Shown one piece after another: positions 4,580-30,620 of a DNA stretch of 64,000 nucleotides. Position numbers and translations under genes: made by a program. Each line of letters opens with the position of its first letter. Positions within the stretch are counted from its first letter, which is position 1. Location of the stretch: assembly GCF_000143415.4 (NCBI RefSeq), contig NW_003314391.1, positions 1 to 64,000 of the forward strand. Direction: 5' to 3'. The stretch comes from Selaginella moellendorffii. Lineage: Eukaryota > Plantae > Lycopodiophyta. Below the pieces are notes generated by a model, which worked only from the letters and a program-made list of their open reading frames with translations, had not been told where the DNA came from and did not search any database.

Positions 4580-4582
4580 ATT

Positions 4583-4595: not shown

Positions 4596-4638
4596 TTCTC
4601 CTCAGTTCTAGCGAAGGATAGAGGCGGATTGCTGGGAG

Positions 4639-7600
4639 ATGGCAAGGGCAGGGCGTAAGCGAACCCAGGCGGGGACAGAACCTCCGCCAGAGCTGGAGCC
4701 TCCGGTCGAACAAGAGGCTATGGATGAGGAATCCTTGCATGAGGAGGACTCTAGTGAGGAAACTTCCAAACAGGAGTCCGGTGGCGAGGTTCGGTCGTCC
4801 AAGGCTCGATTGGACGTTCTAGAAGGTCAATTGGCGCAGACCAATGCCCTGCTGGAGACTCTCGTACGCAAGCTAAAGCGTGACGAGAAACGGAAGAAAA
4901 GGCAAAAGACTGCGGATGCGGGCAGCGCAGAAGGTGCGGACCCTTCGGCAGGGACTGAGGCAAAACCAGACAAGGTCGAACAGACCGAAGTGGAATCAGT
5001 CCCTCAGGCAGTTCCCAAGTACAAACCAAAGCCCCCACCGGTGTTCAAGGGAGTGAACGACTATAAGGTTGTGGAGGATTGGTTTTACGATATGGAGGAC
5101 TACTTCCGAGCGTTACGGTTACCGAGCTCGGAGAAGGTCCCATGTGCAAAACCATACTTGGCAGATAATGCCAAGTCTTGGTGGAGAACAACGGAGGCCA
5201 ACGAAGGACCGGTGGCCACCTGGGACATGATGAAGGCGAGGATCCGCGCGACATACGTTCCTCCGAATGCCACGCTGCATCTGAGAGATGAGCTGAGTAG
5301 GCTGAAGCAGACTGGAACCATCCAGGAATATGTGAATGGGTTCATGGCAAAGAGGATACTTGTCACGGACATGGGGGATATGGATGCGTTCCATGCCTTC
5401 ATATCAGGTTTGCAAACCTGGGCTCGCGGTGAGGTGATGCGCTGGAACCCGACCAACTACAAGGAAGCGTTGGATGCGGCCATCAAGGTGCATTTCAACG
5501 ATAACCTGCGAAAGGGGAACACGACGGGGTCGGGATCCACGTTTCACAAAGGGGCCAAACCGAGGGGAACATATAGCAGGGGGAAATTCAAGAAGAGTTT
5601 CTCTAAGAATGAGTCCTCGGGATTTCGGAAAGGCAAATCCGGTGGCCAGCGAGCAAGTACGTGGGGGAGTCAAGCGAAAAGAGACAAACCCACGGATAAG
5701 AAGGTCAAGTCATATAGCAGCGTGGGAAATAACGTATGCTATAACTGCGGTGAAGCGGGACACTTTTCGAGGGAATGTCCCTACCCGAAGAAGGCCAGAG
5801 CCAATATGGCCATCAAGTCGGGCGAAGTCCAAAATGAGGTATGTGATCCAGTCCCTAACTCAAAGTTACTCATTACACGAGCAACTTTGGTAGAGAGTCG
5901 TTCGCGACATCTACTAGCCCTCCGAGGGAAGCTCGGAGGTAGCTTTGTTAAGATCCTTATTGACACGGGTGCTTCGGATAATTTTGTGGCTGCAGACATA
6001 GTCCGGCAAGCCGGACTAACGGTGCAGCGGCTAGGCGAACCAAGGACTATAGAGTTTGTTCAAGGTAGCCAAAGCACCGATGAGGTACTTCGACAAGCGA
6101 AAGTCGAAGTAGGGACATGGAAGGTAGACATGGATTTCACCGTGTTGGACATGGCGGGATTTGACGTGATCTTCGGAATGGATTGGTTCAATCGGTTCGT
6201 GGTAGCCCTACATGGACAAGGTAGGAACCTTGTGGTACTGGCGAATGCCCAAGGAAGAAGATCTAGGGTGGAAGCCCAGGATCTAAAGGTAGGGCAAAGC
6301 AAGGCCAAAGAATCCTGCTTAAACCTGGTGTCCACGAGAGGACAACTCACTAAAGGAACTAAGGCAGCCTTTTTGTGCTTAGTCTCGGTGAAGAGTGACA
6401 AAAAGACAAGAACGGAAGAAGTGCCTTTAGTGATCCAGCGGGTGTTGGACCAATTCCAGGATACCATGCCGGAGGAGCTACCGGCGGGGCTGCCCCCAGC
6501 ACGACCGATAGAACATAAGATTGAGCTGGTCGAGGGTGCTGAGGCAGTGGTTCGTCCCCCTTATCGTTTGAACGAAAAAGAACTCAAGGAGCTCAAGTGC
6601 CAACTAGAGGAGTTGGTGGACAAAGGGTATGTTAGGTTGAGCAAGTCGCTGTATGGGGCGCCGGTGTTATTTGTGAAAAAGAAAGATGGATCTATGCGCA
6701 TGTGCATAGACTACCGCTTGCTCAACAAGTATACAAAGAAGAACAAGTACCCTTTGCCAAGGATTGAGGACCTGTTCGATAGGTTGGGAAAGGCAAAATA
6801 CTTCTCGAGGATTGACCTAAGGTCAGGATACTACCAGATCAGGGTAGCCGAGGAAGATGTCGAGAAGACAACCTGTCGAACGAGGTATGGGAGCTTTGAG
6901 TTTCTGGTGATGCCCTTCGGGCTATGTAATGCGCCGGCAACGTTTTCGGCGCTAATGAACCACGTCTTTGTACCCTACCTGGATCACTTCGTGGTCGTCT
7001 ATATCGACGACATCCTGATCTATAGCGAGACGCTAGAAGAGCATGCCGAACACTTGGCGAAGGTGTTTGAGAAACTAAGGGAACACAAGCTGTATGCTAA
7101 AGAGAGCAAATGTGACTTTGCTCAACAAGAGGTAAAGTTTCTCGGGCATGTGGTGGGCCAGGACGGGCTCAAGGTGGACCCGGAGAAGGTCCAAGCGATC
7201 CAGGAATGGGAGCGACCATCGAATGTACATGAGTTGAGGGCGTTCCTGGGGCTATGCAACTACTATCGAAAGTTTATCAGACACTATTCGAGAGTAGCCC
7301 TGCCCTTAACGGACCAAACAGGAAAAGGGAAGATGGTATGGACAGCAGAATGCGAGGCGGCATTCGTCCACCTCAAAGGGAAGTTGAGGAAGGCTCCCGT
7401 ATTGGCATTGCCAGACTTTGGTAAGGACTTTGAGGTAGAAACAGATGCTTCGGACTTTGCGTTGGGCGCAGTTCTGAAGCAAGACAACCATCCGGTAGCG
7501 TTCTTCTCGAAGAAGCTGGACAAGGCTCAACGGAAGTGGCCTGCCCATGAGAAGGAATTGTTTGCGGTGGTCAAGGCACTCAAGGAGTGGCGACACTACC

Positions 7601-9409
7601 TTGGGAGACACTTCAAGGTTTACACGGACAATGTGGCAACGAAACACTTCTTGTCACAGCCCGACCTAAGAGGGAAACAAGGTCGGTGGGCCAATGCCTT
7701 GGCCGAGTTTGATTGCGAAATTCTGTACAAGCCTGGGAAGAGCAACATCGTGGCGGATGCGCTAAGTCGAAAAGCGAGCTTGAAGTTGGCAATATCCAGC
7801 GCAACAGCAACCTTCTGGGATGATGTGCGGACAGCATATGAGAACGATGGTCTAGCACAAGAAGTGTTGCTGAGGAATCTAGAGGCGCGGGAAGCTCACC
7901 AGAGAGGTGAGCTGCCAACGGAAGAGAAAACGGGCTATGCGGAACGCAACGGACTCATTTATTACAAGCAAACGAGGGTGTATGTTCCAGAAGGGGAACT
8001 AAGGAAGGTGGCCTTAGAAGAGTGTCATGACGGACCTCTTGCGGGACACGGCGGAGTGCCCAAGACGATGGGCTTACTCAAGAGGAAGTACCATTGGCCA
8101 GATATGGCTAAGGACGTCCAAGACTATGTAAAGACATGTCCAACATGTCAGCAGGTCAAAGCCGTGACTAAGGCTAGTGGGGGCTTGTTGCAAAGCATCC
8201 CAATTCCAGATCGCCCGTGGAAATGTCTTACGATGGACTTCATCACGGGACTACCCCCAAGCGAGGGGTTCGATGCGATATTCGTGGTGGTGGACCGATT
8301 TTCAAAGATGGCACATTTCATACCCACCACAACGGACGTGGATGCGGAAGGTGTGGCGAAGCTGTTCTTTGAACAAGTGGTTCGAGTGCGGGGAAGGCCG
8401 GAAGAGATTATCTCAGATCGAGATAAGATCTTCACTAGTAGGTTCTGGAGGACACTCCTAGAACAGTATCGCACCAAATTGAAATTCAGCACAGCCTATC
8501 ACCCACAGACAGGTAATGGGTATTAAGTCAAGATTGATGGCACTAACACTTCTTGACAGACGGACAAACGGAAAGGGTGAATAGGCAGCTGGAGGATTAT
8601 TTGCGATGCTATGTCTCGGGAGACCAGACCGACTGGGTAAGTCATTTGGGACTTGCGGAAATGTGTTATAACAACTCACCACACTCAAGCATCGGGGTGA
8701 GTCCATGGGAAGTCATCAATGGGCGAGCTATTGAAGGTCCTGTGGAACTCGGCGTGGCCGAGTATCATGGAGAGTTACCCGCAGTGGAGGCATTCACGGC
8801 GGAAAGACTCAACATTTGGAATCTAGTGAGGGATTCCTTGGAACGGGCTCAACAAAGGCAAACTAAGTACGCGAACCAAAAGCGTCGGGATGTGGAGTTC
8901 CAAGCTGGGGAGAAGGTGTGGCTGAACACCAAGAACCTCAGACTACCAAGCTGGATCAGCCGAAAGTTGACCCAAAGGTAAAGACGCATGTATTCCTGTA
9001 AATGAATTGATCTTGAGTTCCTTAAGCAGGTTCGCGGGGCCTTATGAAATTGAGGCACGAATCGGTAAAGTGGCTTACCGACTCCGACTTCCTCGAGAGA
9101 TGGGGAAGATGCACCCAGTGTTCCACGTGAACTTACTCAAGCCGTACTTTGAGGATCCGCTTCGCAAGGACCAAGTGAGACCTTTACCTGAGGTTATCCA
9201 AGGGGAAGAGGAATACGAAGTCGAGGCCATCCTCAATGCGCGCAAGAGCAAGCGACAAGGACGCGAGGTGAGAGAGTCCATGTGAAGTGGAAAGGATTTC
9301 CACACTGCGAAGCAACATGGGAACCGGAGGAGAACCTAGCGAACGCACGAGATCTAGTGGAGGAATTTCTGCAAGGCAGAACTTTATGTACTTATGCAAA
9401 ATTCAATTA
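4639..9409 (+). CDS. Gag-Pol polyprotein; predicted exons 4639-8512, 8560-8977, 9030-~9409, with a 1-nt deletion at ~9279 frameshifting the chromodomain
   Basis: Gag, CCHC knuckle, protease LIDTGA, RT YIDD, RNase H, IN HHCC. Removing two GT-AG segments restores YHPQTDGQTER and KLTQRFAGPY. Confidence 0.88.
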
Positions 9410-9813
9410 AAAATATCAATTTGCAAAGTTGAGCAAATGGCATATGTTGGGACCCGAAGGCGCGCCAAAGGTAAGCTAATTAGCATGAGTTGGATAGGTC
9501 GACCAGGCGTAGGGCACTACGCCCGACTCCCTGCGGGGATGTCGAATCCGTAGACGTATTCTACGGAGGTTGGGTTCGAGTCCCAACCCCCTAGTAAAGC
9601 AAGGCTGGGTTCAAGTCCCGACCCTATACTAGGGCGTGGTGAGGTGGGGAGTATAGGGACACCTATATTCCGTTGTCATGGGCTCTTGGCCGGGGAGGCT
9701 AACTTAGGCACACCGCTAAGTGGGGGGATGCCCCCGGAGACATGGACAACAAGTCGTAGGATAAAACGAGACGTTCGATGTGGGCATCGTACTTCTTCTA
9801 TGGGTGGTGGAGT

Positions 9814-10961
9814 TGTAAGGAACCGACTCCCCGAGGTGTCGTAGGCTAAAGGATCCCCAAAAGCTTGACCGAAGTGACAAAGAGTTCATCGGATGGGACC
9901 AAGTCGAGGATCGAGTCCAAGACCGACTCTAGGACCGAGTTCGAGATAGAGTCCGGAATCGAGTCCGAGACCGACTCGGGGACCGAGTTCGAGTCCGAGT
10001 TCGAGACCGAGTTCGAGACGGAGTCCGAGATCCGAAATCGGGTCCAAGACCGAGTCCGAGGTCGAGTCCGAGGTCGGGTCCGAGATCGGGTCCGAGATCG
10101 AGTCCGTGATCGAGTCCGAACCCGAATCCGAAGTCGGATCCGAAATCGGGTCCGAGATCGAGCCAGAGACTAAGTCCAAATACTAATACGGGTCAAGGGG
10201 TGAAAGCCCAAAGCGTGCGTCTCCCAGGGGGGGGGGGCTGCAGGGGGTTCCAAAAGTATAGTAGGGATAGTGAGGTCCAGGAACCAGTTTTGAAGGGACT
10301 CTCCAGTTGGGCTTCCAAACCGACTTGAGGTTGGGACTGGGACCGAGGGGCCTTGGGTGGGAGTGAGCATGGACTTGGCTGGTGCCGGAGGGGCCATCCA
10401 AGGAAGTGCTCAAGAGCAGCTCCCACTCCCGAAAGGGAAACCGATTGTGGTGCTCCCGGCTCATGCGGAGTGGTGCCCCACTTGAGTACCATGCGGCTCA
10501 TTGGTCCTCGCCCTTCCTAGGGGCTTGGGCCTTCCTTCGGGAGGGAAATGGGGGGCGAGAGGTACCCATACCGGGCCGCTAGGCCACGGTGTTTCGCCCC
10601 GGCGTCCCGAAGCAAGTGTTGCACTCAAGACTTGGGATTTAGAGGGTCCCATGATCAAGTCTTGTGGTACCAAGGGATGTTAGGAACCTGGAAGCTTGGT
10701 GTGCTTGGCTGCTTGTGCTTGCGGGGAGTGTAGCCGAACCTTAAGTCCAGTCTAACCCGGGGAGGGGGATTGGGAGTGATTTGGGAATCCATGGAAGGAT
10801 GGCTAACACTCCGTTGCTCGTGCAGTGAGTAGCTGAAACCAAGTAGGAGCTGGTACCATAGGCGAGAACCTTGGCGAGGGAACTTAGCAAAAGCCAAGGC
10901 AGTGTTGGACGGATAGGCGAGGTAAGCTGGCAAAGTGGAAAGGAAAAATTTGTGGCTTACA
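9814..10961 (+). repeat. 3' LTR of inner element
   Basis: Preceded by PPT, followed by TSD GGTGC. Confidence 0.96.
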
Positions 10962-13900
10962 GGTGCATCTTCCCCATTTCTCAAGGAAGTCGGAGACGGT
11001 AAGACACTTTACCGATTCGTGCCTCAATCTCATAAGGCCCCACGAACCTGCTTAAGGAACTCAAGATCAATTCATTTATGGAATACATGCATTTTTACCT
11101 TTGGGTCAACTTTCGGCTGATCCCACTTGGTAGGCTGAGGTTCTTGCTGTTCAGCCACACCTTCTCCCCAGCTTGGAACTCTACATCCCAACGCTTCTGG
11201 TTCGCGTACTTGGTTTGCCTTTGTTGAGCTCGTTCCAAGGAATCCCTCACTAGATTCCAAATGTTGAGTCTTTCTGCCGTGAATGCCTCCACTGCGGGTA
11301 ACTCTCCATGATACTTGGCCACACCGAGCTCCACAGGACCTTCAATAGCTCGCCCATTGATGACTTCCCATGGACTCACCCCGATACTCAAATGTGGTGA
11401 ATTGTTATAATATATTTCCGCAAGTCCCAAATGACTTACCCAATCGGTCTGGTCTCCCGAGACATAGCATCGCAAATAATCCTCCAGCTGCCTATTCACC
11501 CTTTTTGTTTGTCTGTCTGTCAAGAAGTGTTAGTGCCATCAACTTGACTTAATACCCCATACCTATCTGTGGGTGATAGGCTGTGCTGAATTTCAACTTG
11601 GTGCGATACTGTTCCAAGAGGGTTCTCCAGAACCTACTGGTGAAGATTTTATCTCGATCTGAGATAATCTCTTCTGGTCTTCCCCGCACTCGAACCACTT
11701 GTTCGAAGAACAATTTCACCACCCCTTCCGCATCCACTTCCGTTGTGGTGGGTATGAAATGTGCCATCTTCGAAAATCGGTCCACCACCACGAATATCGC
11801 ATTGAACCCCTTGCTTGGGGGTAGTCCTGTGATGAAGTCCATCGTAAGACATTTCCACGGACGATCTGGAATTGGGATGCTTTGCAACAAGCCCCCACTA
11901 GCCTTAGTTATGGCTTTGACCTGCTGACATGTTAGACATGTCTTTACATAGTCTTGGACGTCCTTAGCCATATCTGGCCAATGATACTTCCTCTTGAGTA
12001 AGTCCATCGTCTTGGGCACTCCGCCGTGTCCCGCAAGAGGTCCATCATGACACTCTTCTAAGGCTACCTTCCTTAGTTCCCCTTCTGGAACATACACCCT
12101 CGTTTGCTTGTAATATATGTGTCCATTGCGTTCCGCATAGCCTGTTTTTTCTTCCGTTGGCAGCTCACCTCTCTGGTGAGCTTCCCGTGCCTCTTGATTC
12201 CTCAGCAACACTTCTTGTGCTAGACTGTCATTCTCGTATGCAGTCCGCACATCATCCCAAAAGGTTGCTGTCGTGCTGGATATCGCCAACTTCAAGCTCG
12301 CTTTTCGACTTAGCGCATCTGCCACGATGTTGCTCTTCCCAGGCTTGTACAGAATCTCGCAATCAAACTCGGCCAAAGCATTGGCCCACCGACCTTGTTT
12401 TCCCCTTAGGTCGGGCTGTGACAGGAAGTGTTTCGTTGCCACATTGTCCGTGTAAACCTTGAAGTGTCTCCCAAGGTAGTGTCGCCACTCCTTGAGTGCC
12501 TTGACCACCGCAAACAATTCCTTCTCATGGGCAGGCCACTTCTGTTGAGCCTTGTCCAACTTCTTCGAGAAGAACGCTACTGGATGGTTGTTTTGCTTCA
12601 AAACTACGCCCAACGCAAAGTCTGAAGCATCTGTTTCTACCTCAAAGTCCTTACCAAAGTCTGGTAATGCCAACACGGGAGCCTTCCTCAACTTTCCCTT
12701 GAGGTGAACGAATTCCGCCTCGCATTCCGCTGTCCATACCATCTTCCCTTTTCCCGTTTGGTCTGTTAAGGGCAGGGCTACTCTCGAATAGTGTCTGATA
12801 AACTTTCGATAGTAGTTGCATAGCCCCAAGAATGCCCTTAACTCGTGTACATTCGATGGTCGCTCCCAATCCTGGATCGCTTGGACCTTCTCAGGGTCCA
12901 CCTTGAGCCCATCCTTGCCCACCACATGCTCGAGAAACTTTACCTCTTGTTGAGCAAAGTCACATTTGCTCTCTTTAGCATACAGCTGGTGTTCCCTTAG
13001 TTTCTCAAACACCTTCATCAAGTGTTCGGCATGCTCCTCTAGCGTTTCGCTATAGATCAGGATGTCGTCAATATAGACGACCACAAAGTGATCCAGATAA
13101 GGTACAAAGATATGGTTCATCAACGCTGAAAACGTTGCCGGCGCATTGCATAGCCTGAAGGGCATCACCAGAAACTCGAAGCTCCCATACCTCATTCGAT
13201 AGGTTGTCTTCTTGACATCTTCCTCTACTACCCTGATCTGGTAGTATCCTGACCTTAGGTCAATCCTCGAGAAGTATTTTGCCTTTCCCAACCTATCGAA
13301 CAGGTCCTCAATCCTTGGCAAAGGGTACTTGTTCTTCTTGGTATACTTGTTGAGCAACCGGTAGTCTATGCACATGCGCATAGATCCATTTTTCTTTTTC
13401 ACAAATAGCACTGGCGCCCCATACGGCAACTTGCTCAACCTAACATACCCTTTGTCCACCAACTCCTCTAGTTGGTGCTTGAGCTCCGCAAGTTCTTTTC
13501 CATTCAAACGATAGGGGGGGCAAACCACTGCCTCAACACCCTCGACTAGCTCAATCTTATGTTCTATTGGTCGTGCGGGGGGCAACCCCGCCGGTAGCTC
13601 CTCTGGCATGGTATCCTGGAATTGATCTAACACTCGTTGGATCACTAAAGGTACTTCTTCCGTTCCAGTCTTTTTGTCACTTCTCACCGAGAGTAAGCAC
13701 AAAAATGCAGCCTTGGTCCCTTTAGTGAGTTGTCCTCTTGTGGACACCACATTCAGTCACGAATCTTTGGCCTTGCATTGCCCTACCTTTAGATCTTGGG
13801 CCTCCACCTTGGATCTTCTCCCTTGGGCATTCGCCAGTACCACAAGGTTCTTATCTTGTCCATGTAGGGCTACCACAAACCGATTGAACTAGTCTATCCC

Positions 13901-15436
13901 GAAGATCACGTCAAATCCCGCCATGTCCAACACGGTGAAGTCCATGTCTACTTTCGAAGTCCCTACTTCGACTCTCGCTTGTCGAAGTACCTCATCGGTG
14001 CTTTGGCTACCTTGAACAAACTCTATAGTTCTTGGTTCGCCTAGCCATTGCACCGTTAGTCTGGCTTGCCGGACTATGTCTACAGCCACAAAATTATTCG
14101 AAGCACCTGTGTCAATAAGGATATTAACAAAGCTACCCCCGAGCTTCCCTCGGAGGGCTAGTAGATGTCGCAAACGACTCTCTACCAAAATTGCTCGTGT
14201 AATGAGTAACTTTGAGCTAGGGACTGGATCACATACCTCAGTTTGGACTTCACCCGACTTAATGGCCATATTGGCTCTGGCCTTCTTCGGGTAGAGACAT
14301 TCCCTCGAAAAGTGTCCCGCTTCATCGCAGTTGTAGCATACGTTGTTTCCCACGCTGCTAAACGACTTGACCTTCTTATCCATGGGTTTGTCTCTTTTTG
14401 CTTGACTCCCCCACGTACTTGCTCGCTGGCCACCAGATTTGCCTTTCCGGAACCCTGAGGACTCATTCTTAGAGAAACTCTTCTTGAATTTCCCTTTGCT
14501 ATATGTTCCCCTTGGTTTGGCCCCTTTGCTAAACGTGGATTCCAACCCCGTCGCGTTCCCCTTTCGTAGGTTATCGTTGAAATGCACCTTGATGGCCACA
14601 TCCAACGCTTCCTTATAGTTGGTCGGGTTCCAGCGCATCACCTCACTGCGAGCCCAGGTTTGCAAACCTGATATGAAGGCATGGAATGCATCCATATCCC
14701 CCATGTCCATGACAAGTATCCTCTTTGCTATGAACCCATTCACATACTCCTGGATGGTTCTAGTCTGCTTCAGCCTACTCAGCTCATCTCTTAGATGCAG
14801 AGTGGCATTCGGAGGAACGTATGTTGCACGAATCCTCGCCTTCATCATATCCCAAGTGGCCACCGGTCCTTCGTTGGCCTCCGTTGTTCTCCACCAAGAC
14901 TTGGCATTATCTGTCAAGTATGGTTTTGCACATGGGACCTTCTCCGAGCTCGGTAATCGCAACGCTCGGAAGTATTCCTCCATATCGTAAAACCAATCCT
15001 CCACCACCTTATAGTCATTCACTCCCTTGAAGACCAGTGGGGGCTTTGGTTTGTACTTGGGAACTGTCTGAGGGACTGATTCTACTTCGGTCTGTTTGAC
15101 CTTGTTTGGTTCTGCTTCAGTCCCTGCCGAAGGGTCCGCACCTTCTGCGCTGCCAGCATCCGCAGTCTTTCACTTTTTCTTCCGCTTCTCGTCACGCTTT
15201 AGCTTGCGTACAAGAGTCTCCAGCAGGGCATTGGTCTGTGCCAACTGTCCTTCAAGCATGTCCAATCGAGCCTTGGACGACCGAACCTCGCTACTGGACT
15301 CCTGTTTGGAAGTTTCCTCACTAGAGTCCTCTTCATGCAAGGATTCCTCATCCATAGCCTCTCGTTCGACTGGAGGCTCCAACTCTGGAGGAGGTTCCGT
15401 CTCCACCTTGGTTTGCTTCCGCACTGCCTTTGCCAT
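10962..15436 (-). pseudogene. gag-pol of outer element (disrupted)
   Basis: ORFs 15170-15436, 13889-15022, 11549-13750, 11095-11523. Motifs [24 protein letters not shown], RNase H ETDASD, IN zinc finger and core. Frameshift and stop relative to the inner copy. Confidence 0.92.
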
Positions 15437-15495
15437 CTCCCAGCAATCTGCCTCTATCCTTCACTAGAACTGAGGAAAAAGCTTCGATACCAAAT

Positions 15496-16642
15496 TGTAA
15501 GCCATAAATTTTGACCTTTCCAATTTGCCAACTTACCTCGTCTATCCGTCCGACCCTGCCTTGGCTTTTGCTAAGTTCCCCCGCCAAGGTTCCCGCCTAT
15601 GGTACCAACTCCTACTTGGTCCTACTTGGTTTCAGCTACTCACTGCATGAGCAATGGAGTGTTAGCCATCCATCCACGGATTCCCAATCTCTCCCAATCC
15701 CCCTCCCCGGGTTAGACTGGATTTAAGGTTCGGCTACACTCCCCGCAGGCACAAGCAGCCAAGCACACCAAACCTCCAAGTTCCTAACACCCCTTGGTAC
15801 CACAAGACTTGATCATGGGACCCTCTAAATCCCAAGTCTTGGGTGCAACACTTGCTTCGGGATGCCGGGGCGAAACACCGTGGCCTAATGGCCTGGTATG
15901 GGTACCTCTACCCCCCCACTTCCATCCCGAAGGAAGGCCCAAGCCCCTAGGAGGGGCGAGGACCAATGAGCCACCTGGTACTCAAGTGGGGCACCACTCC
16001 ACATGAGCCGGGAACACCGCAGTCGGTTTCCCTTTCGGGAGTGGGAGCTGCTCTTGAGCACTTCCTTGGATGGACCCTCCGGCACCAACCAAGTCCATAC
16101 TCACTCCCACCCAAGGCCCCTTGGTCCCAGTCTCAACCTCAAGTCGGTTTGGAAGCCCCACTGGAGAGTCCTTTCAAAACTAGTTCTTGGACCTCACTAT
16201 CCCTACTATATTTTTGGAACCCCCTGCAGCCCCCCCCCCCCCCAGGAAACGCACACTTTGGGCTTTCACCCCTTGACCCGTATTAGTATTTGGACTCAGT
16301 CTCTGGCTCGATCTCGGACTCGATTTCGGATCTGACTTCGGATTCGGTCTCGGACTCGAGCTCGGACTCGATCTCGAACCCGATCTCGGACCCGACCTCG
16401 GACTCAACCTCGAACTCGGTCTCGGACCCGATTTTGGATCTCGGACTCCGTCTTAAACTCGGTCTCGAAGTCGGTCCCCGAGTCGGCCTCGGACTTGATT
16501 CCGGACTCTATCTCGAACTCGGTCTCATAGTCGGTCTTGGACTCGATCTTCGACTTGGTCCCATCCAATGAACTCTTTATCATTTGGTCATGCTTTCGGG
16601 GTTCCTTTAGCCTATGACACCTCGGCGAGTTGGTTCCTTACA
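15496..16642 (-). repeat. 5' LTR of outer gypsy element
   Basis: Adjacent to PBS; homologous to 1588-2725. Confidence 0.93.
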
Positions 16643-20369: not shown

Positions 20370-20549
20370 ATATATAGACTACAAATTAGGTCATATAAAA
20401 TACTTAGCCTTTAGAAGTTTGTCAAATAGGTCATCAATATGAGGTAGTAAATAACTAGTTTTTTACTATAATCTTCTTGAGAGCTTGACATATCCTTATG
20501 GTACCATCTTTTTTATAAACAAAAAGGACCGGTGCTTTATAAGTGGAGA
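20370..20549 (-). pseudogene. Degenerate gypsy RT fragment (insertion site of the DNA transposon; continues at 30007)
   Basis: Joining across the element gives GSPSISTYKAPVLFVYKKDGTIRIC...KN*..LPHIDDLFDKL, an RT N-terminal motif. Confidence 0.8.
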
Positions 20550-20992
20550 TAAGCTCTATTTCGTTAAAGTGGGAATTGTCATTATCCCACTTGTAAAATA
20601 AGGTTTCCAAACCTTTATATAGTATATAAATATAACAAAATTCAACTGCATTGAGGCACATGCCATTTTATTTTAAACAAGGAAATGTCTACTCAATCAC
20701 TTCTCCTCCCCCTGCCACTGCTTCACCTCTCTCTTCTCCTTGTCATCGTCGTCCAATTTCTTTCCATCCTTTTAATATTGGCTCAGTTGCTCCGAGTCTA
20801 GGTGGAGCCCAAGTCCCCATTCAATCTTTACTTTCCCCTTATTAATAAAACAACTTCGTAGACTTCCAATAACATGCTGTAACACTTCTAGTATAATGCA
20901 AATCCTCTCAAAGAATTGTCTTTTAATATTAATACAATGGCATGGAACCCCATGCCATAATAAGTTACATTTTTAAATAAATACATGCCATC

Positions 20993-23452
20993 TCAGACTG
21001 TTATTTTTTGCCTCCAACGCCTATACAATAATCTTGGAATTTCATCACTCTCCACACTATTAGGATTTAAACCCAATAGTAATGCCATCTCTTCTCTAAT
21101 ACGTCCACGCTCATGTTCAGTGGTCGAAGAACCCATCCGGTTGAGCAAATTATGGAGATGTGGATAGTGCTTGGCTAGACAATATACATGCCATAAATGA
21201 TGACTAGTGTCTGTCCAATCAAATGGCTTCTGATATACCGTTCCATCTGCCATTTGGTTGATTTCTGCAGCCACCTCCTGGACTGGCCGGTTCTCTATCA
21301 CCATCGCTCCAAGCCGTTTTGCAAGGTCCCCCAAAACATACGGTTTCTTCTCCCTAGTTTCCATACTGCAAGAGATGGGGTGCACTGCATATGTGTGCGT
21401 GTTCGCTGCAGTTTTAATCGGCGAGTCATCGATGATGAGGATTTCACTTGAACTAGCAGTCTGGTTCATCACTACAACCTCTAGCTTGACAAAGATGGGC
21501 TTGCTACCCCTCACATGGACCATAGTCAAGCAATCCTCCTGCGTTAGGAGAAAGTCAAATGGTAATATTACTCGCGTCTGATCGTGCATCATCTGTAGCA
21601 ACGTTAATGCATTGTGGCGCATCATGGATGTCCAAACTCCCAATTGCAAATTGAACCTGGCCCTCTGTTTTAAGTGTCGCATGGTCATTATTAGATCCCG
21701 CAGTTTCTCCCGTGTGATTAATGTGAATCTGTCTCTTTTGACCAACTCGATGAACTTGGGGGCCCCCTTCACGTACTCATCGATGTCTTCATTTGATAAA
21801 TCCAGCGCTTCCATCATCTCTTGCATGTTGTCGATGCTCACCCTCTCCACGGCCACTTGCTCGAAGATCCAATCCTTCAATAGCGCACGAGCTCTCAGAG
21901 TCGTGCACAAGTCCTCGTATGTCACAATATGGCCGGGAGTCATTTTGGTCTTGTTGAAGGCTACCTCACCACGTAGAAGAGCATTAGGCACTGTCAGAAG
22001 GTCGTCGTCGTCTAGAGACCGCGAGAAACGCAAGGCGTTGAGCTTCAAATCATTGGGCTTCCGGCCGTCCTCCACACCCATTGAGTTTGGCAACTCCCCG
22101 TCATGGTACCTCCTCAGCACATCTACCCATTTGTCAAAAACAACTTTTGTCGCGAGTAGAATGTTATGGATGCTGAGTGTGTCATTGACCCCCAGTGTTT
22201 TCGAGAGAAGACTCGAGAATTCCTACAATGGAAATGGCGTGAGGCCACATGCTATGCCACATGCAACGAGGCTTACCTGCCAGGCGCTAGTTGCTAGTGC
22301 ATGTCCTTGTCCTCGTTTTTGTGGCTTCTTCAGTTGAACCCAGAGCTTCCGTGTTCGTGCCAATGTCTCATGCAGACCCGATTTGTAGCACGTTTCTTGC
22401 TTGACATTCTGCGCGTGGGAGATGTATATGATAGATCGGAGGGGCGAGTTGCCTTTTATCAGGCGGACAACTCTTGTCTTGAAGACTTTCTTCACCTCCT
22501 CGCCCACCATAATATCCACAACTATCTCTTGCATCGCCAAACTAGAATGCTGCCCGGAGACGGCATAGAACCGGATGTTCTGATCGTCCAACACCTTCCT
22601 ATTGATCAAGTCTGGAAACCTCGTCTCGCCCTTCATTGTTCGGTAGTAGGGGATCACGTCTGCGATGTCGGGTGTTACTGGACTTGCCAGCATCTTCTGC
22701 TTCAGTTTCTCCACCCACTCATCAGATACTAGCCTGTGGTTGTATTTGCTTTGGATGTCGATACGGCTCACGTCGATTGTATATACTTTGTTGGAATAGT
22801 AACAAGTACTATTATCTGCGACGATTTTTGCTGCCTCTTCTTGCTCTTTCTGCTCTTTATGGCTCTTCTTTTTGGTGGGTGTAGTGTTCGAACCCGAGGC
22901 AATGGCATCACCGAGTAGCTTCTTTTTTGGAGGAGAGTCGGACGTCGGCTTGAGCTTGACCACCCTTTTCTGCTTCGGGGTAGTTTCCAAATCGACCCCC
23001 TTCCCCTTCGCTTTGCGAACTGGAGGCACTCTCAACGGCTCAATGTTGGAATATAGTTTTTGAACATCGCCGTAGGTGAGGTCCGTGGATTCCATGTGAT
23101 CTTCATAGACCCGCAGCGTCTTTGAAATTGTGGGCCTCCTGGACAACCTCTCCCTAGCTCCCTCTAGGAATTCCTCATAGCCGCTGCCCCCCTCCGGGAA
23201 GCCGCTAGGATGTGCAAGGTGGATCTTGAAGGCAGACGCTGTCTCTACCACAAGTGCCAGTCCATATTCTTGCATGGAACTGCATGGAGTGTCTGTCACT
23301 TGGATGAGGATCCCCATGCATTCTTTTCTCCCACCATCTGTGTTGTACAGCCTCAGATCCTCGCCTTCCATCCCGAAAGTCCAACTGGTGAGTTCCTTCC
23401 CCTTCTCTGCATCCACATTGACAGTGGCTGGAAGAAGAACGCAATTCCTCGC
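20993..23452 (-). CDS. Large (>=801 aa) transposon accessory protein with ParB/Sulfiredoxin-like domain; exons 23452-22277 and 22222-20993, further 5' exons likely
   Basis: Two long ORFs join in frame across a 54-nt GTAAGC..TAG intron (22223-22276). Segment IDVSRI..YNHRLVSDEWVEKLKQKMLASPVTPDIADVIP...RFYAVSGQHSSLAMQEI follows the ParB-N/Srx pattern. Preceded by a basic low-complexity linker (PKQKR, PPKKK, PTKKK). Confidence 0.7.
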
Positions 23453-24936
23453 CTGTTCAGAAATGCACAACAATTAGAGCTGACAGATGAAAAGCTAGCA
23501 GCTGGAAATAACGTGAGGCCACACGCCATTCACCACTGCATCAGATGTCTTGAGGCTGCATCCTAAGATGGCGTGAGGCTACACGCCATCTGTAACCGGA
23601 CTGCACTCGAGAGCCCAATCGGTGCATGCCAATGTTGCTACTGAATGGCATGTGGCCTCATGCCATTTTCTACTTGGCCTAAAAGACTTACCATTTGAAG
23701 CCGAATGGAGGCGTGACAACTGGACTCACTGGCGAATGTGCACTATGTGTGCAGCGGATCGTAGCAGCAAGGCTACTCTGCCACTTACAGTTGGAGAGTG
23801 GCGCTGAAATCTCCCGGGACGCCAAGTGGGCTGCGTGTGGGTGGCGGAGTGGGCGGCGGAGTTGGCGGCGAAGTTACAAACTGGGTGTGTCTTGAAGTGG
23901 ACGCCGATGCACACGAGCGCGATGCGAGCGCGAGTGTGATGCAAGCGCGAGTGGACACCGATGCACACGAGAAACCTGTAGAGAAGTGGGAGCGCGAGTG
24001 GGAGCACGATGCGAGCGCGAGTGTGCGAGCGCGAGTACGAAGCAAAATGCAAAACCTAACCTCACACGCGCGAAATGTCACGACGGTTGGTAATCCCGCC
24101 ACATCATCATTCCTCGAAGTTGGGCGCCACCATTAATTTCTGGTTCGGCGCGCGCATGCGTGAAATCCAAAAGAAATCCGCAACGTCATCATTCCTCGGA
24201 CTGCATGCACGCGAAATCCAAAAGAAAGATCATGATTGGGATATCATTTAATACCCTCGCTATATTTATACCATGCATGATTGGATATTCCAAAGCATCT
24301 TGTATTTCCAAAAATGCCAGATGTTCAGCTAAATAAATTGTCAGAGGATTTGATGTGACGTTCAAGCGTGTGGGCTCATGCAATTTTGATCCCAAAAAAT
24401 GCACCAAAAAATGCTCGGTGTCATCTGGCGTTATCTCTTGAATGGCGTGGGGCCGCATGCCATTTTCAGGAGCATATAGGAGGATATTCCTAGAATATTC
24501 TGACACACGCGAGATTGTTTTGAGTTTCCTGGAGATCCAACCGTTAGATCGCAACTAGATTTTACAGAATGGTATACAATGTCCTTCTTGATGACCCTGA
24601 AAAGAAGCATCTCGATCGGACACCACATGAGACCACACGAGCCTTACAATGTTTCAGGGGCATTTGCCATAGATCCGACCGTTATTTTGCTCCAAGATTC
24701 TACAGTTTGGTGTGCATTGACCTTTCCATCGACACTGCAAAGGGACATCACAATCAGATGCAGGATCACAAGAAACCAACTTCACTAACTCTGGTTTCAC
24801 CAAGATCTACGTAAGGAGTTATGAAATGAAAGGACCCTCTCTATTGAAATGTGTTTATGGTCCTAGGGGCATTGTGACATATCAAAGGATTTTGCATCAA
24901 GTTCTGTATTTGCGTGTTTATCAAGCTACTGAATTG

Positions 24937-24961
24937 CTAAACCCTAAACCCTAACCCTAAA
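24937..24961 (+). promoter_or_regulatory. Telo-box/short interstitial plant telomere repeat (CCCTAAA)~3
   Basis: CTAAACCCTAAACCCTAACCCTAAA between the two divergent transposon genes. Confidence 0.55.
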
Positions 24962-26247
24962 CATGTGGCAAATGCTGCGTGAAGAAAGATGCCCTTTCTG
25001 GGCAAATGCTATAAGAGGCAGATGCCGAGCAGATGTATCTCAGGCTAGCGAAGGGGACAAACGAAAGCTAGCTATAAACATGACGGGATGCAAATAGATT
25101 ACTAGGCTGGTCCTGCGAAAATCAAAAACCATAATTGAAAACATTGAAAATGCAAAAAGAAAGGTTTATAATATTTTTGAATTTTAAGCAACCAAAGGAA
25201 TGTAAGTAGGGCATGTGTTTGTAAGTTAAAAAATGCCTCAACCACTTAAATTCCCAAGTAAATAAAGCTGTTTCTATTTTTGGTACAGGTAAACTTTATA
25301 GCGTGTGGGCTCATGCAATTTTGAACCCAAAAATGCACCAAAAAATGCTCGACTAGCATTATTCTTTGAATGGCGTGTGGCCTTATATTGCCATAAATGG
25401 ACGTACACACACAGCATAATTATTCCTTTACACGGCGAATAATCTTGGCGTGGATCGCTGACATGGCATGGCAAAGTTCGAATCACTGACATGGCACAGC
25501 TGGATCGAGGCAAGGACATGATGTGACAAAGTTCAACCTCTGACAGCAAAGTCTAGAAGCTACTCAGTTTGAAATTTGTCAGAGGAATCATAAGATCTGG
25601 TTTGTCAGAGGATTTGATGTGACGTTCAAGCGTGTGTTATTTTTGAATTCTCGAACTCATTCCTAGGTCTATCATTTTTGTGCGCCGTGTTCTTGGTTCC
25701 GCTGAGCACAGTGAGCGCTGCTTGTGTAAGCGGCGTTGTGAGCTGTGGTTTATGCGTCTACAAGCGGTTGCGGCATTGCGAGCGCCATTGCGAGCGGCAG
25801 TTTATGCGAGTGGCAGTTTGTGTGAGCGGCGCTACGAGCAGTTGCGGTGTTGCGAGCGGCGCTACGAGTAGTTGCGGTGTTGCGAGCAGCACTGTCTTTG
25901 GTGTGGCTACCGCTTCCTCTTGATATTCGGCACTTGTGCTTCCTGGTATGTTCACCATGGAATGGTTTAGGACCACATTTAGAAATGGCATGAGGCCACA
26001 TGCCATCTTGGGCCCTTGCAATTTCATGGCTAGCGTATTGTCATGTATGTTTTTACTTGCCTGCAGCTGTGTGTATATCAAGATGGCATGAGGCCTCATG
26101 CCAATTTTGTGAATGCGAAATTTCACGTGGGTGTCAATAGCATGTTTGAATAATGGCATGTGGCCTCATGCTATTTGGTATGTTATGATTTAGGCCATTC
26201 TCCAATCATTTTTTGTATGGTCTTAACTTCTTTTCTACACTTTCAGA

Positions 26248-29200
26248 ATGGCCTTCAGGGTTGGGGAAAAGGTTTACATTTTGAATGGTGGGAAGAGAGT
26301 TGCAAAAGGGACCCTTGTGTCTATGGATCGGAACTTTGTTATACACTGTCAAAGGCTTGGGGAAGGCAATGCTGCTGTATCAGTAGAGACTGTCTTCGAT
26401 GGGAATGTGGTCGCTATTGAACGAGGAGAGATGGTCGTCGGGGTAAATGTTGTTGTTGCCTTGAAAAATCTGCAGAAGAAAGCAGATGTTGGGGACAGCG
26501 CAAGTGCGACGCATGTTCCCTCCGTGGATCTTAAGAACCGTGCTACATGGATTCAGGCAAAGGTGTTTCTAAACAACCCCGAGGGGGAGGTGGTAGCTGA
26601 GGGCTTAGCCACAGTTGTGGATCCAAGAGATGCGGTTGCTAATCAAGAATTGGGCTGGGATGATATTGGAGTTGCGATTTTAGAGGTTGTTGACACAGAA
26701 GAAAACAGTCTGACTATTGGAAGCATTGTGCGGTGGAAATTGAGGCATTTAGTGTTTGAGAATGTGAAGGATTCACAATCAAACACCACTACAACTGATG
26801 ACAGAACATCTTTTCATGGGAAAAGAAAGTACACCTTCCTACAGTGCAGCCAAAGGGATCTGAGCAACGAACCGAAAAGGCAGAAAATGGCGATGGAGGT
26901 TCGAATGGTCTCGACAGTTGCTTGTTGCAAGAGGAGGTGCTGTCAACATGCTGATTGGGATGCTATTGAAGAGGAGGGAGCAAGATACAAGACATTGTCC
27001 TGGAAGGCAGCTCGCAATTTTGTGTATGAGGCATTACGGTCATCTGTTGATGCTTCAGAACATCAGGTGGGGGGCATGGTCTTCCAGAGGGGTTTGGTCT
27101 GCATGAAGGCATGGAGAATCATTTATGGAGTCCCTCGAAGCACATTCTACAGAATCAAAACTGAGTTCGAGGAACAAAGGGTTCAACAGGCAGTCCATGG
27201 GAACGACGATACACACAAAACCAGGGGTCATGTTGTATATGGAGAGGCAATCTTCAAGAGGTTTGTCGAGACATGTAGCGAGCAGCAACCACATAAAACC
27301 CGCCTCTTGGAAGATGGAACACGAGACACCCAACGAGTTCTCCCTTCCATGTATACCAAGGGGGCCATATTGGAAGATGTGAATCGGGAACTCCAGAGTA
27401 ATGGCTATAGGAAGCTGAGCCAATCTAGATTTAGTAGATTGTGGAGCAACAGGTTTAGGGATGTGAGTATAGGAAAGTACTCCAGCTTTTCAAAGTGTGA
27501 CGAGTGCACTACTATCAAAATGGCTTTGTCGAAGAATTCTTGCAGCGCTCAAGAGCGAGAGACGTTGGTTAGAAGGCGGCTCAACCACAACATCGAGCAG
27601 AGAAGCTGCAGGACTGCATATTATCATAACAGGATTCTCTCCATGGAGAGACCTGACTCTTACCTCTGCATCATCCACGACAAAATGGACCAGAAAAAGA
27701 CGTGCTTACCTCGACTCAATCCTGCCCCCAAGGCAATCTCTTCATCCATGCAGCTGCCTGTGTCTCTATTTGGCATAATCGCTCATGGGCATGGTGCCCA
27801 GAACTATGGGAACTTCTTTGTACCTCTATGGGGTGGCGGGGGTGCAAACATGATGATTGCGTCCCTAGCAAAACACTTAAGGTCTCTGCAAAGTGCGCAG
27901 ACTGAGCTGAACGGCCAACCCTTGCATAAGGCCCTTGTCGATCGAACCCCATACAGGGTTCAGCTGGAGGAGGAGCAAAGGCTTGCAGTATCGCGTGGGG
28001 CCCCATGCCATCCCAGTGAATATGTTGGCCGTCAGATTGTAGGGTTATCACGTGAGGCCTCATGCCATTCCGACGAGGCTGGTCGCCCGGTGAATGCACA
28101 GCCTCATCCAAACGAAGCAGAATCTCAAGGAAGTTCTTGCGGCCGATGTGGCCTTCCACCCCATCTTCTGCTCCAAACAGACAATGCTGGCAGTGAGAAC
28201 AAAAACATGTACGTCTTCGTGTACTTGGCGATGCTTGTTGCCAAAGGCATATTTGAAACGGTTACACTTGGCTTTCTCATGGTTGGGCACACTCATGAAG
28301 ACGTCGATGCCATGTTCAGTCACCTGGCAGAGTCCCTCCGGCGATCCAATGTCCTCACCCTCCCACAACTCTACGATGAATTCCAAAATTGCATCAAAGG
28401 CACTGTTGAAGCTACACTTGTGACAGAGGTTCCAGACTTTAAGGGGTTTGTAAGAGGCTACATCAGGGACGGATCCGAAACGCTGATTGGCCACTCCAAG
28501 CCTCTTCAGTTTCATTTCAGCATGCGTGACGGTGCTCCAGTGATGAGGTACAAGATGAGAGAATGGGACACAGTGTGGCTGCCAGTGGATGGCATTGAAC
28601 TCTTCAAGAGAGATCCCATAACTGGGGAACCTATGATTCCTCAGGGTTCCCCACGGCCGATGCACCCGGATGGACTCAAAGACCAGGAAAGTATAGTGGC
28701 CGGGATTAGACAGCATATTGCCTTCTGGAAGAGGGGGTTGGTGTTTGGTGGAGAATCCTATTTTAAGAGGTGCAAGCCTTTGCTCGAATACTGGGAGAAG
28801 ATTATATCTGCTATCCAAAATGGGCCGGTTGTATATGAAGAATTGGAAGAGTCCTTTTGGCCAGAACCCAGAGCACCAGATAGTAGCGGAACAATGTCCT
28901 CTGGAAATGCAGTGACAGATAACGATGTTGAGGATCACTATTGTGGGCCGAGGAACAAGAAGCCGGATTCAGCATTCAATCCAGTACAGGTCTGCAAAGG
29001 AATGGTCGTGCTTGTTAGACCCAGTAATAAAAAACAAATGATATGGGTGGGGCGCTGCATCACTGATGCAGAGGAGGACGCAGAAACTAACTCCTTCAAT
29101 GTAACTGTGGAGTGGTTCAAGCCAAGTTCCGGATATACGAAGGATTGCCTAGAAAAGAGATGGGTGCTGAATCCAAGGGATCCCAGCATGAGCATATCGG

Positions 29201-29389
29201 TGGATAATGTTGTGCATGGTTGGATGCGGAAGCAGAGTGCCACCATCACCTTGCCAGACCATGCAAGAGATGTAGCAAGAGCATTCATAACCCGGGTTCA
29301 AGGTGAGATTCATTAATATTCCTTTACTAAGTTTCTAATGTATTTTATTTCAAGGTGAACAATCCGAATCTGAATCAGAGGAGGCGTGA
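26248..29389 (+). CDS. Putative DDD transposase (Sola-like, GHTHEDxD type), ~1030 aa; exons 26248-29302 and 29355-29389
   Basis: Intact 1022-codon ORF with C-rich CCKRRC/VCMKAW, HGN, KCDEC, HDKMDQKKT (D478), LQTDNAGSENKN (D645), FLMVGHTHEDVDAMFS (D685/687). Lies between TIRs. Short terminal exon GEQSESESEEA*. Confidence 0.82.
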
Positions 29390-30620
29390 TGGCATGTGGC
29401 CCTTTGCACTAGTATATCTTAATACCGGTCTGAGAAATAGAATGGCATGTGCCCTCAGGCCTTTTACTAAATCACCTTTGAAAGAAATGCAAGCCTCTAT
29501 GTCGTAAAAAAAAGGTACTAGAGAAATTCCTTAATAATATGAATGTTATTTAGTTTCATGAAAATACACTAAGGGTCAAATGAGTTAAATGACTTCTCCA
29601 GACTAGCAATGCCTCTTGCTACACCTTCACAATTAGATTCGTTAGAAAAAGATAACATTGAATAATATCTAAATGTTCTCACCATTAAGTTATATGTTTG
29701 GCTAATAGGAATGACGTTCATCTTGGAAAGCTCACCACACGCTCAATGAACAAAAAAATAGTGTGTGCGCGCATGCCATCGCTCTTCTTTAGCTTCAGAT
29801 TCGGCTTGTTCACCTTGACAATGAGATTTATTATACAACCAGATGGACTCAGTCTGGACACAAAGTCACCGCGCTAGTCACCATGCCCTAGACATGTCTA
29901 GCCCCTGGACAAAAAACATATAATTTCACGTCATTTTCAAATACTTGAAAATTTGTACTTAGTCCCATTTTACTGAATAAATCCCACTTTAACGAAATAG
30001 AGCTTAGATGGTGATCCCACAGTCAATCGAAATATTGAGTTGGATTTGATATAGTAGAGGTGACTGTAACCATTATTACTACACACACTTGTGATAAGAG
30101 AGACCAAAGGGCAGCAGCCCACATTTTTGTATTAGTCCCTATAGGACATTAGGAATGTATATACATGTTTCATTTATAAATAAATGAAATATCTGCAATA
30201 GAAAAATGTGATATAGCATCCTAAGGCAAGCAATTCCATAGGAAGGAGAGTATTTGGATGTGGTAGAAACCTTTTTTTTTTTGCTTAACTCTAAGATTCA
30301 ATGTTTCTTTACTTGTATGAAGTGATAATTTGAAGAACAAGAGAAAAATATAGTAAAAATCCCTAATGGATTTTATTAAAGGAGATAGAAAATTCTAGAG
30401 ATTAGATAATAGCTAGATCCCACCAAATAGAAATATTTTTCTAACATAATATTAAATTTTATTCATTATTTATTATTTAGTATTCTAGTGGTTTGTATTC
30501 TATTTGGTTTGTTTAAGCAAACTTCTAGTGGAGTGGGCTGGTAGTAGATATACCTAGTATGCTCTTGAATATTCTAGGATATTCTACCATGTAAGGGTTG
30601 TTATTCATTTAAATTAATTT

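What the first reader, a model, noticed from the sequence alone, without database searches (positions are those of the whole stretch)
20993..23452. Spliced >=800-aa ParB/Sulfiredoxin-like gene inside the transposon
Seen: two ORFs fuse across a 54-nt intron. The core reads NHR-x5-WV-x2-L-x3-M...PDIADVIP...FYAVSGQHSSLA...SHAQN, paralleling ParB-N (R..l..L..sI....PI.V...y.ii.GxxR..A...EN). The GxxR arginine is Ser here, so CTPase activity may be altered or lost. A basic NLS-like linker precedes it and a helical C-terminal half follows. The fold call is inference from motif spacing.
Basis: partly seen in the sequence, partly recalled or inferred. Interest (0 to 1): 0.85.

Follow-up and report, generated by a model that had tools for sequence, protein, structure and literature searches.

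The report
Plant transposon's arginine-less ParB helper gene
A 9.5-kb plant jumping gene carries, opposite its transposase, a spliced helper gene predicted to fold like the bacterial DNA-gripping protein ParB, which likely binds an 18-copy palindrome found only inside the element; this copy lacks a middle piece that in liverwort relatives resembles a DNA methylase, a design already reported in algae.

Summary
The gene lies on the minus strand of a 9,455-bp element with 27-bp terminal repeats, an AGAT target duplication and an open DUF7869 (Sola-like) transposase frame. The 54-nt intron is backed by homologues and a paralogue, not by RNA. The model matches ParB/Noc/PadC/Srx (Z 9.8).

Three corrections:
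(1) The missing GxxR arginine is family-wide (Ser 17, Thr 1 of 18), so the CTP switch is probably gone.
(2) The C-terminal half is not just helical; it ends in a weak, truncated FCP1/NIF-like domain.
(3) This copy likely carries an in-frame deletion at 21747. Contigs from two runs hold at least 664 and 519 more bases there, and Riccia homologues hold a beta-class methylase-like domain there.

A 22-bp palindrome occurs 18 times inside the element and never in the other 54.5 kb. Best reading: a self-recognition protein that docks on these sites and brings modifying domains to its own element (binding untested). The design is in print for brown and red algae, and this scan found it before on other DNA (25 notes; two mention FCP1). 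Interest moderate.

The parts
20547..20550 (.). Left target-site duplication AGAT
   Evidence: Same 4 bases follow the right repeat at 30006-30009. A contig of run X8 matches down to 20547 and then enters a different flank. A 2-bp GA reading with a one-base longer repeat is formally possible.
20551..20577 (.). Left terminal inverted repeat (AAGCTCTATTTCG...)
   Evidence: 26 of 27 identical to the right repeat
29979..30005 (.). Right terminal inverted repeat
26248..29316 (+). Open transposase frame, 1022 aa, DUF7869; conserved HDKMD, DN..ENKN, GHTHEDVD blocks; Sola-like (label inferred)
   Evidence: Pfam PF25273 E 5.6e-42; 68 homologues incl. Physcomitrium and Ceratodon proteins; alignment; positions
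23692..23694 (-). Predicted start ATG directly before a GTAAGT donor (239-nt intron 23691-23453, phase 0); the true start may lie further upstream
   Evidence: Sequence only; not shown by RNA
22277..23452 (-). Exon: unassigned N-terminal ~150 aa, basic linker (22978-22856), ParB-fold core (about 22810-22390), following helix
   Evidence: acceptor used in one contig of X2
22223..22276 (-). 54-nt phase-0 intron that contains one palindrome copy (22234)
   Evidence: X8's copy has CAG instead of TAG at the acceptor (22225)
21748..22222 (-). Helical region homologous to the post-ParB region of Riccia proteins; candidate DNA-reading (HTH-like) part, unresolved
   Evidence: Scores 61-72 vs shuffle maxima 54-57 for 3 of 4 Riccia proteins; 46 vs 53 for the fourth. 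Low-confidence helices in the Riccia model.
21746..21747 (-). Junction of a likely in-frame internal deletion of at least 664 bases
   Evidence: Loose ends on both sides in X1 (208 and 664 unlike bases) and on one side in X8 (519), with the same letters in X1 and X8
20993..21745 (-). FCP1/NIF-like (HAD) domain lacking its first motif, then a C-terminal tail and stop
   Evidence: Pfam NIF E 7e-4, below cut-off; Atlas top rows FCP1/NIF 0.92 but recognition 1991, weak
20645..29779 (.). 18 dispersed copies of a 22-bp palindrome, consensus ATGGCATGWGGCCWCATGCCAT; starts 20645, 20937, 22234, 23508, 23545, 23568, 23645, 24363, 24442, 25298, 25985, 26083, 26153, 27990, 28047, 29389, 29442, 29758
   Evidence: 18 of 18 matches at up to 6 mismatches lie inside the element, none in the other 54.5 kb; 20 first-order simulations of the element gave mean 0.35, max 2. 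The consensus was drawn from these copies.

Best explanation
This is the helper gene of a Sola-like cut-and-paste transposon of a land plant: its product is predicted to have a ParB fold, lacks the arginine that ParB needs for nucleotide binding, and likely docks on the element's own 22-bp palindrome to bring modifying domains to the element's DNA. Shown: element ends, target duplication, another insertion site, divergent gene layout, motif set, family-wide GQH(S/T), element-restricted palindrome. Predicted: the ParB fold. Inferred: (1) dimers of the ParB-fold plus following helices read the palindrome as ParB reads parS, but as a static, nucleotide-independent binder rather than a sliding CTP clamp; (2) full-length copies carry a beta-class amino-methyltransferase-like domain and a complete FCP1-like domain, as Riccia homologues do, and use them to mark or shield the element against host silencing; (3) this copy lost the methylase-like part and the first FCP1 motif by an in-frame deletion at 21747 and is decaying, so any product would be a binder without those activities.
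For: Fold. An independent model of the Riccia homologue gives the same top rows (Z 8.6 PadC). Motif counts. In purified ParB-fold proteins, replacing the GxxR arginine abolished NTP binding (bioRxiv 10.1101/2025.10.10.680097, passages). Palindrome 18 inside, 0 outside. Two related elements have their own different palindromes: L001 has 7 copies; L008 has 26, between 36-bp inverted ends and beside an opposite-strand NIF-like frame, E 5e-6. Riccia homologues: N6_N4_Mtase weak hits in 4 of 4 and NIF hits in 3 of 4; the methylase-region profile hits M.RsrI, E 1.6e-4; 512 and 663 residues lie between the points that flank the window's junction. Deletion; the NIF match starts at profile position 49. 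Decay: versus X8, 31 of 38 differing places are A>G or T>C on the plus strand, i.e. the window copy has the T/A that C-to-T change leaves. Precedent: Ectocarpus Sola1-1_Ec32 and Bostrychia PAG3 with adjacent inverted repeats.
Against: No binding is shown, and the helical region after the ParB core was modelled at pLDDT 35-67 with no HTH match above background. The deleted DNA was seen only as 30 letters at each end, so its methylase content is inferred from Riccia. The Riccia methylase-like domain has DLTH/DVTH where an active beta-class enzyme has a D/SPPY-type motif (TSPPY in the Marchantia enzyme), so it may be inactive. The ParB profile hit 0 of 80 loci with related transposases, and 55 of 62 such loci of 5 kb or more showed no palindrome family. 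L008 has palindromes but no detectable ParB remnant. The window's FCP1-like part is no closer to the Riccia FCP1 parts than shuffles in pairwise tests. Three raw RNA runs show no coverage of the gene body. Whether the Riccia homologues lie in transposons was not checked.
Confidence: 0.55

Rival explanations
1. The palindromes are binding sites for the transposase (or hairpins kept for another reason), and the ParB-fold protein has another job, such as a protein scaffold that contacts host chromatin or RNA polymerase II through its FCP1-like domain.
For: Five of 18 copies lie within about 620 bases of the ends. L008 has 26 palindromes and an FCP1-like frame but no ParB hit. No HTH was confirmed.
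Against: Thirteen copies are internal: in introns, between the genes, and inside a variable loop of the transposase frame. Most related-transposase loci have no palindrome family (55 of 62). The red-algal ParB-like PAG3 also sits beside inverted-repeat arrays.
Confidence: 0.2
2. The domain still works as a nucleotide switch or enzyme with a rewired site: the family-invariant arginine after the GQHS helix (R123 of the modelled piece) replaces the lost one, so the protein can load at palindromes and spread along the element.
For: GQH, R123 (18 of 18), N145 (16 of 18) and the Box I arginine (13 R, 2 K, 3 gaps) are the most conserved residues of the family, as a kept ligand pocket would give.
Against: The GxxR arginine was needed for binding in the tested ParB-fold proteins, and the glutamate before the Asn is present in 1 of 18. 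The position of R123 in the pocket could not be measured.
Confidence: 0.17
3. The window's 802-aa form is the normal gene of a sub-family (or the extra DNA in other copies is a nested insertion), so a methylase-free ParB-FCP1 protein is the functional unit.
For: The junction is in frame and both flanks are stop-free; the transposase frame is open.
Against: Runs X1 and X8 (different samples and years) carry the same extra DNA at 21747, with only one shared base and no target duplication. Read by hand, the 30 letters at each end stay open in the gene's frame. No listed contig joined across 21747 as the window does (tables partly cut). The FCP1-like domain starts without its first motif.
Confidence: 0.08

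Closest known systems
Sola1-1_Ec32 of Ectocarpus and its 1104-aa ParB-like + N4C/N6A methyltransferase accessory protein (PMC12477816; passages and supplement rows read; figures not seen)
   Same: Sola-type element with 4-bp target duplication and AA..TT termini; accessory gene on the strand opposite the transposase; ParB-like domain; self-binding proposed by the authors
   Different: Land plant; 9.5 kb with 27-bp repeats versus 21.5 kb with 282-bp repeats; C-terminal FCP1-like domain; methylase absent from this copy; a defined dispersed palindrome. The Ectocarpus sequence was not compared.
Plavaka accessory genes PAG2/PAG3 of Bostrychia (bioRxiv 10.1101/2025.02.11.637652; passages read)
   Same: Transposon-borne ParB-like protein beside inverted repeats, proposed to bind and modify its own element
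   Different: EnSpm/Plavaka transposase; ParB fused to a 2OG oxygenase with the methylase in a separate gene; repeats in tandem arrays rather than dispersed
Bacterial ParB/Noc/KorB/PadC CTP switches (PDB 7ol9, 6sdk, 6ryk, 8qa8; motif definitions from bioRxiv 10.1101/2025.10.10.680097, passages)
   Same: Predicted N-terminal fold, Box I arginine, Box III asparagine, cognate palindromic DNA as a candidate site
   Different: GQHS/T in place of GxxR, no conserved Glu before the Asn, no confirmed HTH, no ParA gene in the element; 9-15% identity
Sulfiredoxin (PDB 6ky4, 1yzs)
   Same: Same fold, Z 7.4 and 5.9
   Different: No cysteine at the GCHR position (motif recalled; Gln in 18 of 18); embedded in a large multidomain transposon protein
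VANC anti-silencing proteins of VANDAL transposons (named in the Bostrychia passage; details recalled)
   Same: Working principle: an element-encoded protein recognises motifs spread through its own element
   Different: Unrelated protein family and transposase superfamily

Membership tests
Sola1 DNA transposon | Terminal inverted repeats with a 4-bp target duplication | tested here: met
   27-bp repeats, AGAT on both sides; 4-bp TSD listed for Sola1-1_Ec32
Sola1 DNA transposon | Copies at other insertion sites | tested here: met
   An X8 contig leaves the window exactly at 20547 into another flank
Sola1 DNA transposon | Transposase grouping with named Sola1 transposases | tested here: inconclusive
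   DUF7869 and moss homologues; no named Sola protein was on hand; the defining paper is not held; the Sola label rests on recalled motifs and the precedent
ParB-CTPase | ParB/Srx fold | tested here: met
   (Z 9.8, rmsd 3.0, 100 aligned; the first nine rows are ParB/Srx-fold proteins as I recall them)
ParB-CTPase | Box II GxxR arginine | tested here: not met
   Ser 17, Thr 1 of 18
ParB-CTPase | Central HTH that reads parS | tested here: inconclusive
   Helices at the expected place in the Riccia model, pLDDT 44-67; Foldseek alignments to ParB/Noc run 220-245 columns but with rmsd 8-14; no VIA row above background
ParB-CTPase | NTP binding and hydrolysis; sequence-specific DNA loading | not testable with these tools
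   needs biochemistry
Sulfiredoxin | Catalytic cysteine in GCHR (recalled) | tested here: not met
   Gln in 18 of 18
Transposon ParB + amino-methyltransferase accessory proteins (Ectocarpus type) | ParB-like gene opposite the transposase inside the element | tested here: met
Transposon ParB + amino-methyltransferase accessory proteins (Ectocarpus type) | Methyltransferase domain in this copy | tested here: not met
   No Pfam hit; a profile from three Riccia methylase regions finds nothing in the window
Transposon ParB + amino-methyltransferase accessory proteins (Ectocarpus type) | Methyltransferase domain in full-length relatives | tested here: inconclusive
   Riccia: weak Pfam hits in 4 of 4, M.RsrI E 1.6e-4 over the SAM-binding motif only, altered catalytic motif; the missing DNA of this species could not be read
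FCP1/NIF HAD phosphatase | Family profile match | tested here: inconclusive
   19.7 bits vs cut-off 21.8; Atlas 0.92 with weak recognition; UBLCP1 E 0.053 for the three-sequence profile
FCP1/NIF HAD phosphatase | Catalytic DxDx(T/V) first motif (recalled) | tested here: not met
   Match starts at profile position 49, downstream of the deletion junction; Riccia homologues have DVEG

The most novel reading that the evidence does not exclude
Seed-free land plants host a lineage of Sola-like elements with a private ParB/parS-type address system that has dropped the nucleotide switch. The arginine-less ParB domain reads an element-specific palindrome and tethers a methylase-fold domain plus an FCP1-like (RNA polymerase II tail phosphatase-type) domain to the element, forming a VANC-like anti-silencing device built from bacterial and host parts. 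Each family has its own palindrome, which makes the recognition code directly testable.
Probability: 0.25. Interest if true: 0.75.

Novelty: new variant of a known kind. Interest (0 to 1): 0.42.

Why it matters
Few transposons are known to recognise and modify their own DNA; the Bostrychia paper names only VANDAL. The algal ParB-fusion cases are proposals without a tested site. Here the candidate site is a single 22-bp word confined to the element, so binding is a one-experiment question. The family-wide loss of the GxxR arginine asks whether a ParB fold can work without nucleotide. The value of this window is limited: the copy is likely deleted and unexpressed in the runs examined, and the scan has met the design many times.

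Tried and rejected
No assembly is held for the window, so copy number and full-length copies could not be read.

A word-index search with the ParB region among 687-2000-aa proteins found nothing. The exhaustive search gave 13 hits, E 1e-7 to 9e-4. The profile search gave 4 Riccia proteins.

No ParB family hit by sequence: Pfam, PHROGs, PDB profile (only unrelated weak rows).

The ParB profile found no relatives in metagenome contigs (104 candidates) or viral contigs (62). The prokaryote-genome scan could not be run with either alignment.

No RNA holder was listed. Three raw RNA runs, about 12% of each read, cover only short stretches near 23.3-23.8 kb and 29.6-30.0 kb; almost all laid reads fit only 23752-23791. 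X1 contigs run unspliced across the donor and the upstream intron and may be DNA.

The Atlas put DUF3723 (Starship cargo) at 0.95 beside ParB_N at 0.93. The Starship paper's passages give no ParB link, so this is a lead only.

The N-terminal 150 residues match no homologue's N-terminus above shuffles (0 of 5). Rfam found nothing meaningful in the element. Exact look-up of the two window frames: not in the collection.

Rejected readings: sulfiredoxin; a copy-specific Arg-to-Ser mutation; a purely helical C-terminal half. No complex prediction was run.

Literature searches returned no land-plant description of this gene. I did not search papers for FCP1 with transposons, and subscription papers and bioRxiv supplements were not visible.

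Full report
Setting. The window is land-plant DNA: Ty3/gypsy elements and genes resembling O-methyltransferase, cinnamoyl-CoA reductase (name recalled; Pfam gives Epimerase), kelch and P450 proteins. An unchecked scan note on the same genome calls it a clubmoss. No assembly is held.

The element. Inverted repeats at 20551-20577 and 29979-30005 agree in 26 of 27 bases and are flanked by AGAT on both sides. A contig of run X8 follows the window down to 20547 and then enters a different flank, so the family has at least one other insertion site and the left end is right. An open 1022-aa frame at 26248-29316 (+) matches DUF7869 (E 5.6e-42) and has 68 homologues, including moss proteins. I call the element Sola-like from the 4-bp duplication, recalled motifs and the Ectocarpus precedent; no named Sola protein was compared.

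The gene and its introns. Of three homologues aligned, two span the junction and both prefer the spliced form (194 vs 172; 169 vs 152); P0075 crosses it with no gap. These two are Riccia gene models, so they are predictions, but independent of this window. A decayed paralogue at about 46.0-46.9 kb (duplicated near 59.6-60.5 kb) has a 56-nt GT..AG intron of different sequence at the same codon boundary. In X8's copy the acceptor reads CAG, so the intron is stop-free there. The upstream acceptor is used in one spliced contig of X2. An ATG directly before a GTAAGT donor at 23691 gives the simplest start and an 802-aa product (predicted). The 54-nt splice itself was not seen in RNA, and three raw RNA runs do not cover the gene body.

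The fold. The exhaustive search with the 188-residue core found 13 relatives; a profile added four Riccia proteins. AlphaFold on the 18-row alignment gave pLDDT 77.8. Foldseek's first ten rows are Noc, ParB, PadC and Srx (best E 1.2e-4). VIA gives PadC Z 9.8 (rmsd 3.0, 100 aligned), KorB 8.9, pNOB8 ParB-N 8.5, SerK 8.0, Srx 7.4. A model of the Riccia homologue repeats this (Z 8.6). At Box II all 18 sequences read GQH followed by Ser (17) or Thr (1); the Box III Asn is kept in 16 and the Glu before it in 1; a further Arg is invariant. Replacing the GxxR arginine abolished NTP binding in the ParB-fold proteins tested in bioRxiv 10.1101/2025.10.10.680097 (passages), so loss of the switch is the likelier reading; a rewired pocket is the rival. 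The helices after the core sit where ParB has its HTH but were modelled poorly and matched nothing above background.

Contigs of X1 leave the window at 21747 on both sides (208 and 664 unlike bases), and X8 shows the same loose end with 519 bases. Read by hand, the 30 letters printed for each end stay open in the gene's frame. Upstream of this point the protein is homologous to the post-ParB region of Riccia proteins (3 of 4 above all 200 shuffles). Downstream it matches FCP1/NIF weakly, from profile position 49 on (Atlas), although not the Riccia FCP1 parts in pairwise tests. In Riccia, 512-663 residues lie between the corresponding points. They hold a beta-class amino-methyltransferase-like domain (weak Pfam hits in 4 of 4; M.RsrI E 1.6e-4 over the SAM-binding motif) with DLTH/DVTH at the catalytic motif, then an acidic linker and the first FCP1 motif, DVEG. 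I infer that the window's copy is an in-frame deletion derivative of a ParB-helical-methylase-FCP1 gene. The missing DNA itself was not readable. Against X8, 31 of 38 differing places are of the kind that C-to-T decay of the window's copy would leave. Of 28 listed coding differences, 18 change a residue and 10 do not (the list was cut by the tool).

Second: the palindrome. A 22-bp palindrome occurs 18 times in the element at up to 6 mismatches and not once in the other 54.5 kb; simulations give at most 2. Copies lie near both ends, in the introns, between the genes and in a variable loop of the transposase. Among 62 loci of 5 kb or more with related transposases (of 80 fetched), 7 have a palindrome family of three or more, three of them probably one element (L007-L009), and 55 have none. 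L001 and L008 have their own words, and the window's word is absent from both. L008 also has 36-bp inverted ends and an opposite-strand NIF-like frame. The ParB profile hit none of the 80 loci, so the link between gene and palindrome is not shown across elements here.

Mechanism. Most likely (0.55) the protein is a self-recognition factor: it binds the palindrome as a static dimer and brings the methylase-fold and FCP1-like domains to the element, to mark it or shield it from silencing. Binding, catalysis and effect are all inferred, and both enzyme-like domains have altered catalytic motifs in the only full-length relatives seen. Rivals: the transposase binds the palindromes (0.2); the pocket still binds nucleotide through another arginine (0.17); the short form is the functional one (0.08).

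Known systems. Ectocarpus Sola1-1_Ec32 carries a ParB-like plus N4C/N6A methyltransferase gene opposite its transposase (PMC12477816, passages and supplement rows). Bostrychia PAG3 is ParB-like and lies beside inverted repeats (bioRxiv 10.1101/2025.02.11.637652, passages). ParB-HTH fusions to adenine methylases in chlorophytes and chytrids are noted in PMC4738411 (passages). The Marchantia 4mC paper does not mention ParB (bioRxiv 10.1101/2021.02.12.428880, term search and passages). A review's table lists Physcomitrella Sola1 (PMC9033089); PMC9156397 and PMC10175614 were read as passages for DUF3723. The scan's notes list 25 findings of the same design in at least 3 other genomes, two mentioning FCP1, and no look-alike by sequence. 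I had reached my reading before opening them, and they are not independent support.

Verdict. A real gene with a correct fold call, in a likely broken copy: a new variant (arginine-less ParB, FCP1-like tail, defined palindrome) of a kind already proposed in algae. Interest 0.42.

Noticed in passing
window 46,000-46,870 (-) and 59,600-60,460 (-): Frameshifted remnant of a second, about 30% identical ParB-like gene with the intron at the same place, inside a 13.5-kb duplication; no copy of the 22-bp palindrome near it.
   Followed up: partly
window 23752-23791: A 40-base stretch matches a very abundant RNA in all RNA runs laid (contig depth up to about 1000); I recall the flanking letters as large-subunit rRNA, so the element may hold a captured rRNA fragment. 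Rfam reported nothing there.
   Followed up: partly
window 23686: Contigs of X2 and X5 (two studies) continue from this base, just after an AG, into the same foreign sequence, which is not in the window: possibly splicing from a neighbouring exon into another copy.
   Followed up: partly
L008 1202-12482 (also L007, L009): Decayed related element with 36-bp inverted ends, 26 copies of its own 18-bp palindrome, many at 24-base steps, and an opposite-strand FCP1/NIF-like frame.
   Followed up: partly
L001 641-1584: Seven copies of a different 18-bp palindrome upstream of the closest related transposase; the contig ends 2 kb upstream.
   Followed up: partly
P0075 residues 1-17 (Riccia homologue): The N-terminus resembles the histone H3 tail (recalled), a possible chromatin mimic or a gene-model artefact.
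   Followed up: no
window 29350-29396 and 29772-29818: 47-bp inverted pair (83%) downstream of the transposase, each arm touching a palindrome copy.
   Followed up: no
window 24338-24454 vs 25300-25382 and 25602-25636: Repeated blocks, including an exact 35-mer, in the region between the two divergent genes.
   Followed up: no
window 1588-16600: Two Ty3/gypsy copies in opposite orientation, 93% alike over 3970 bases; one has an open 1304-aa gag-pol frame.
   Followed up: no
window 44986-50550 and 58511-64000: Near-identical 13.5-kb-spaced duplication with N gaps; recent tandem copy or assembly artefact.
   Followed up: no
window 52687-54966 (-): Adjacent O-methyltransferase-like and single-exon NAD-dependent reductase genes, with a P450 fragment at 56.3 kb: a possible phenylpropanoid gene group.
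   Followed up: no
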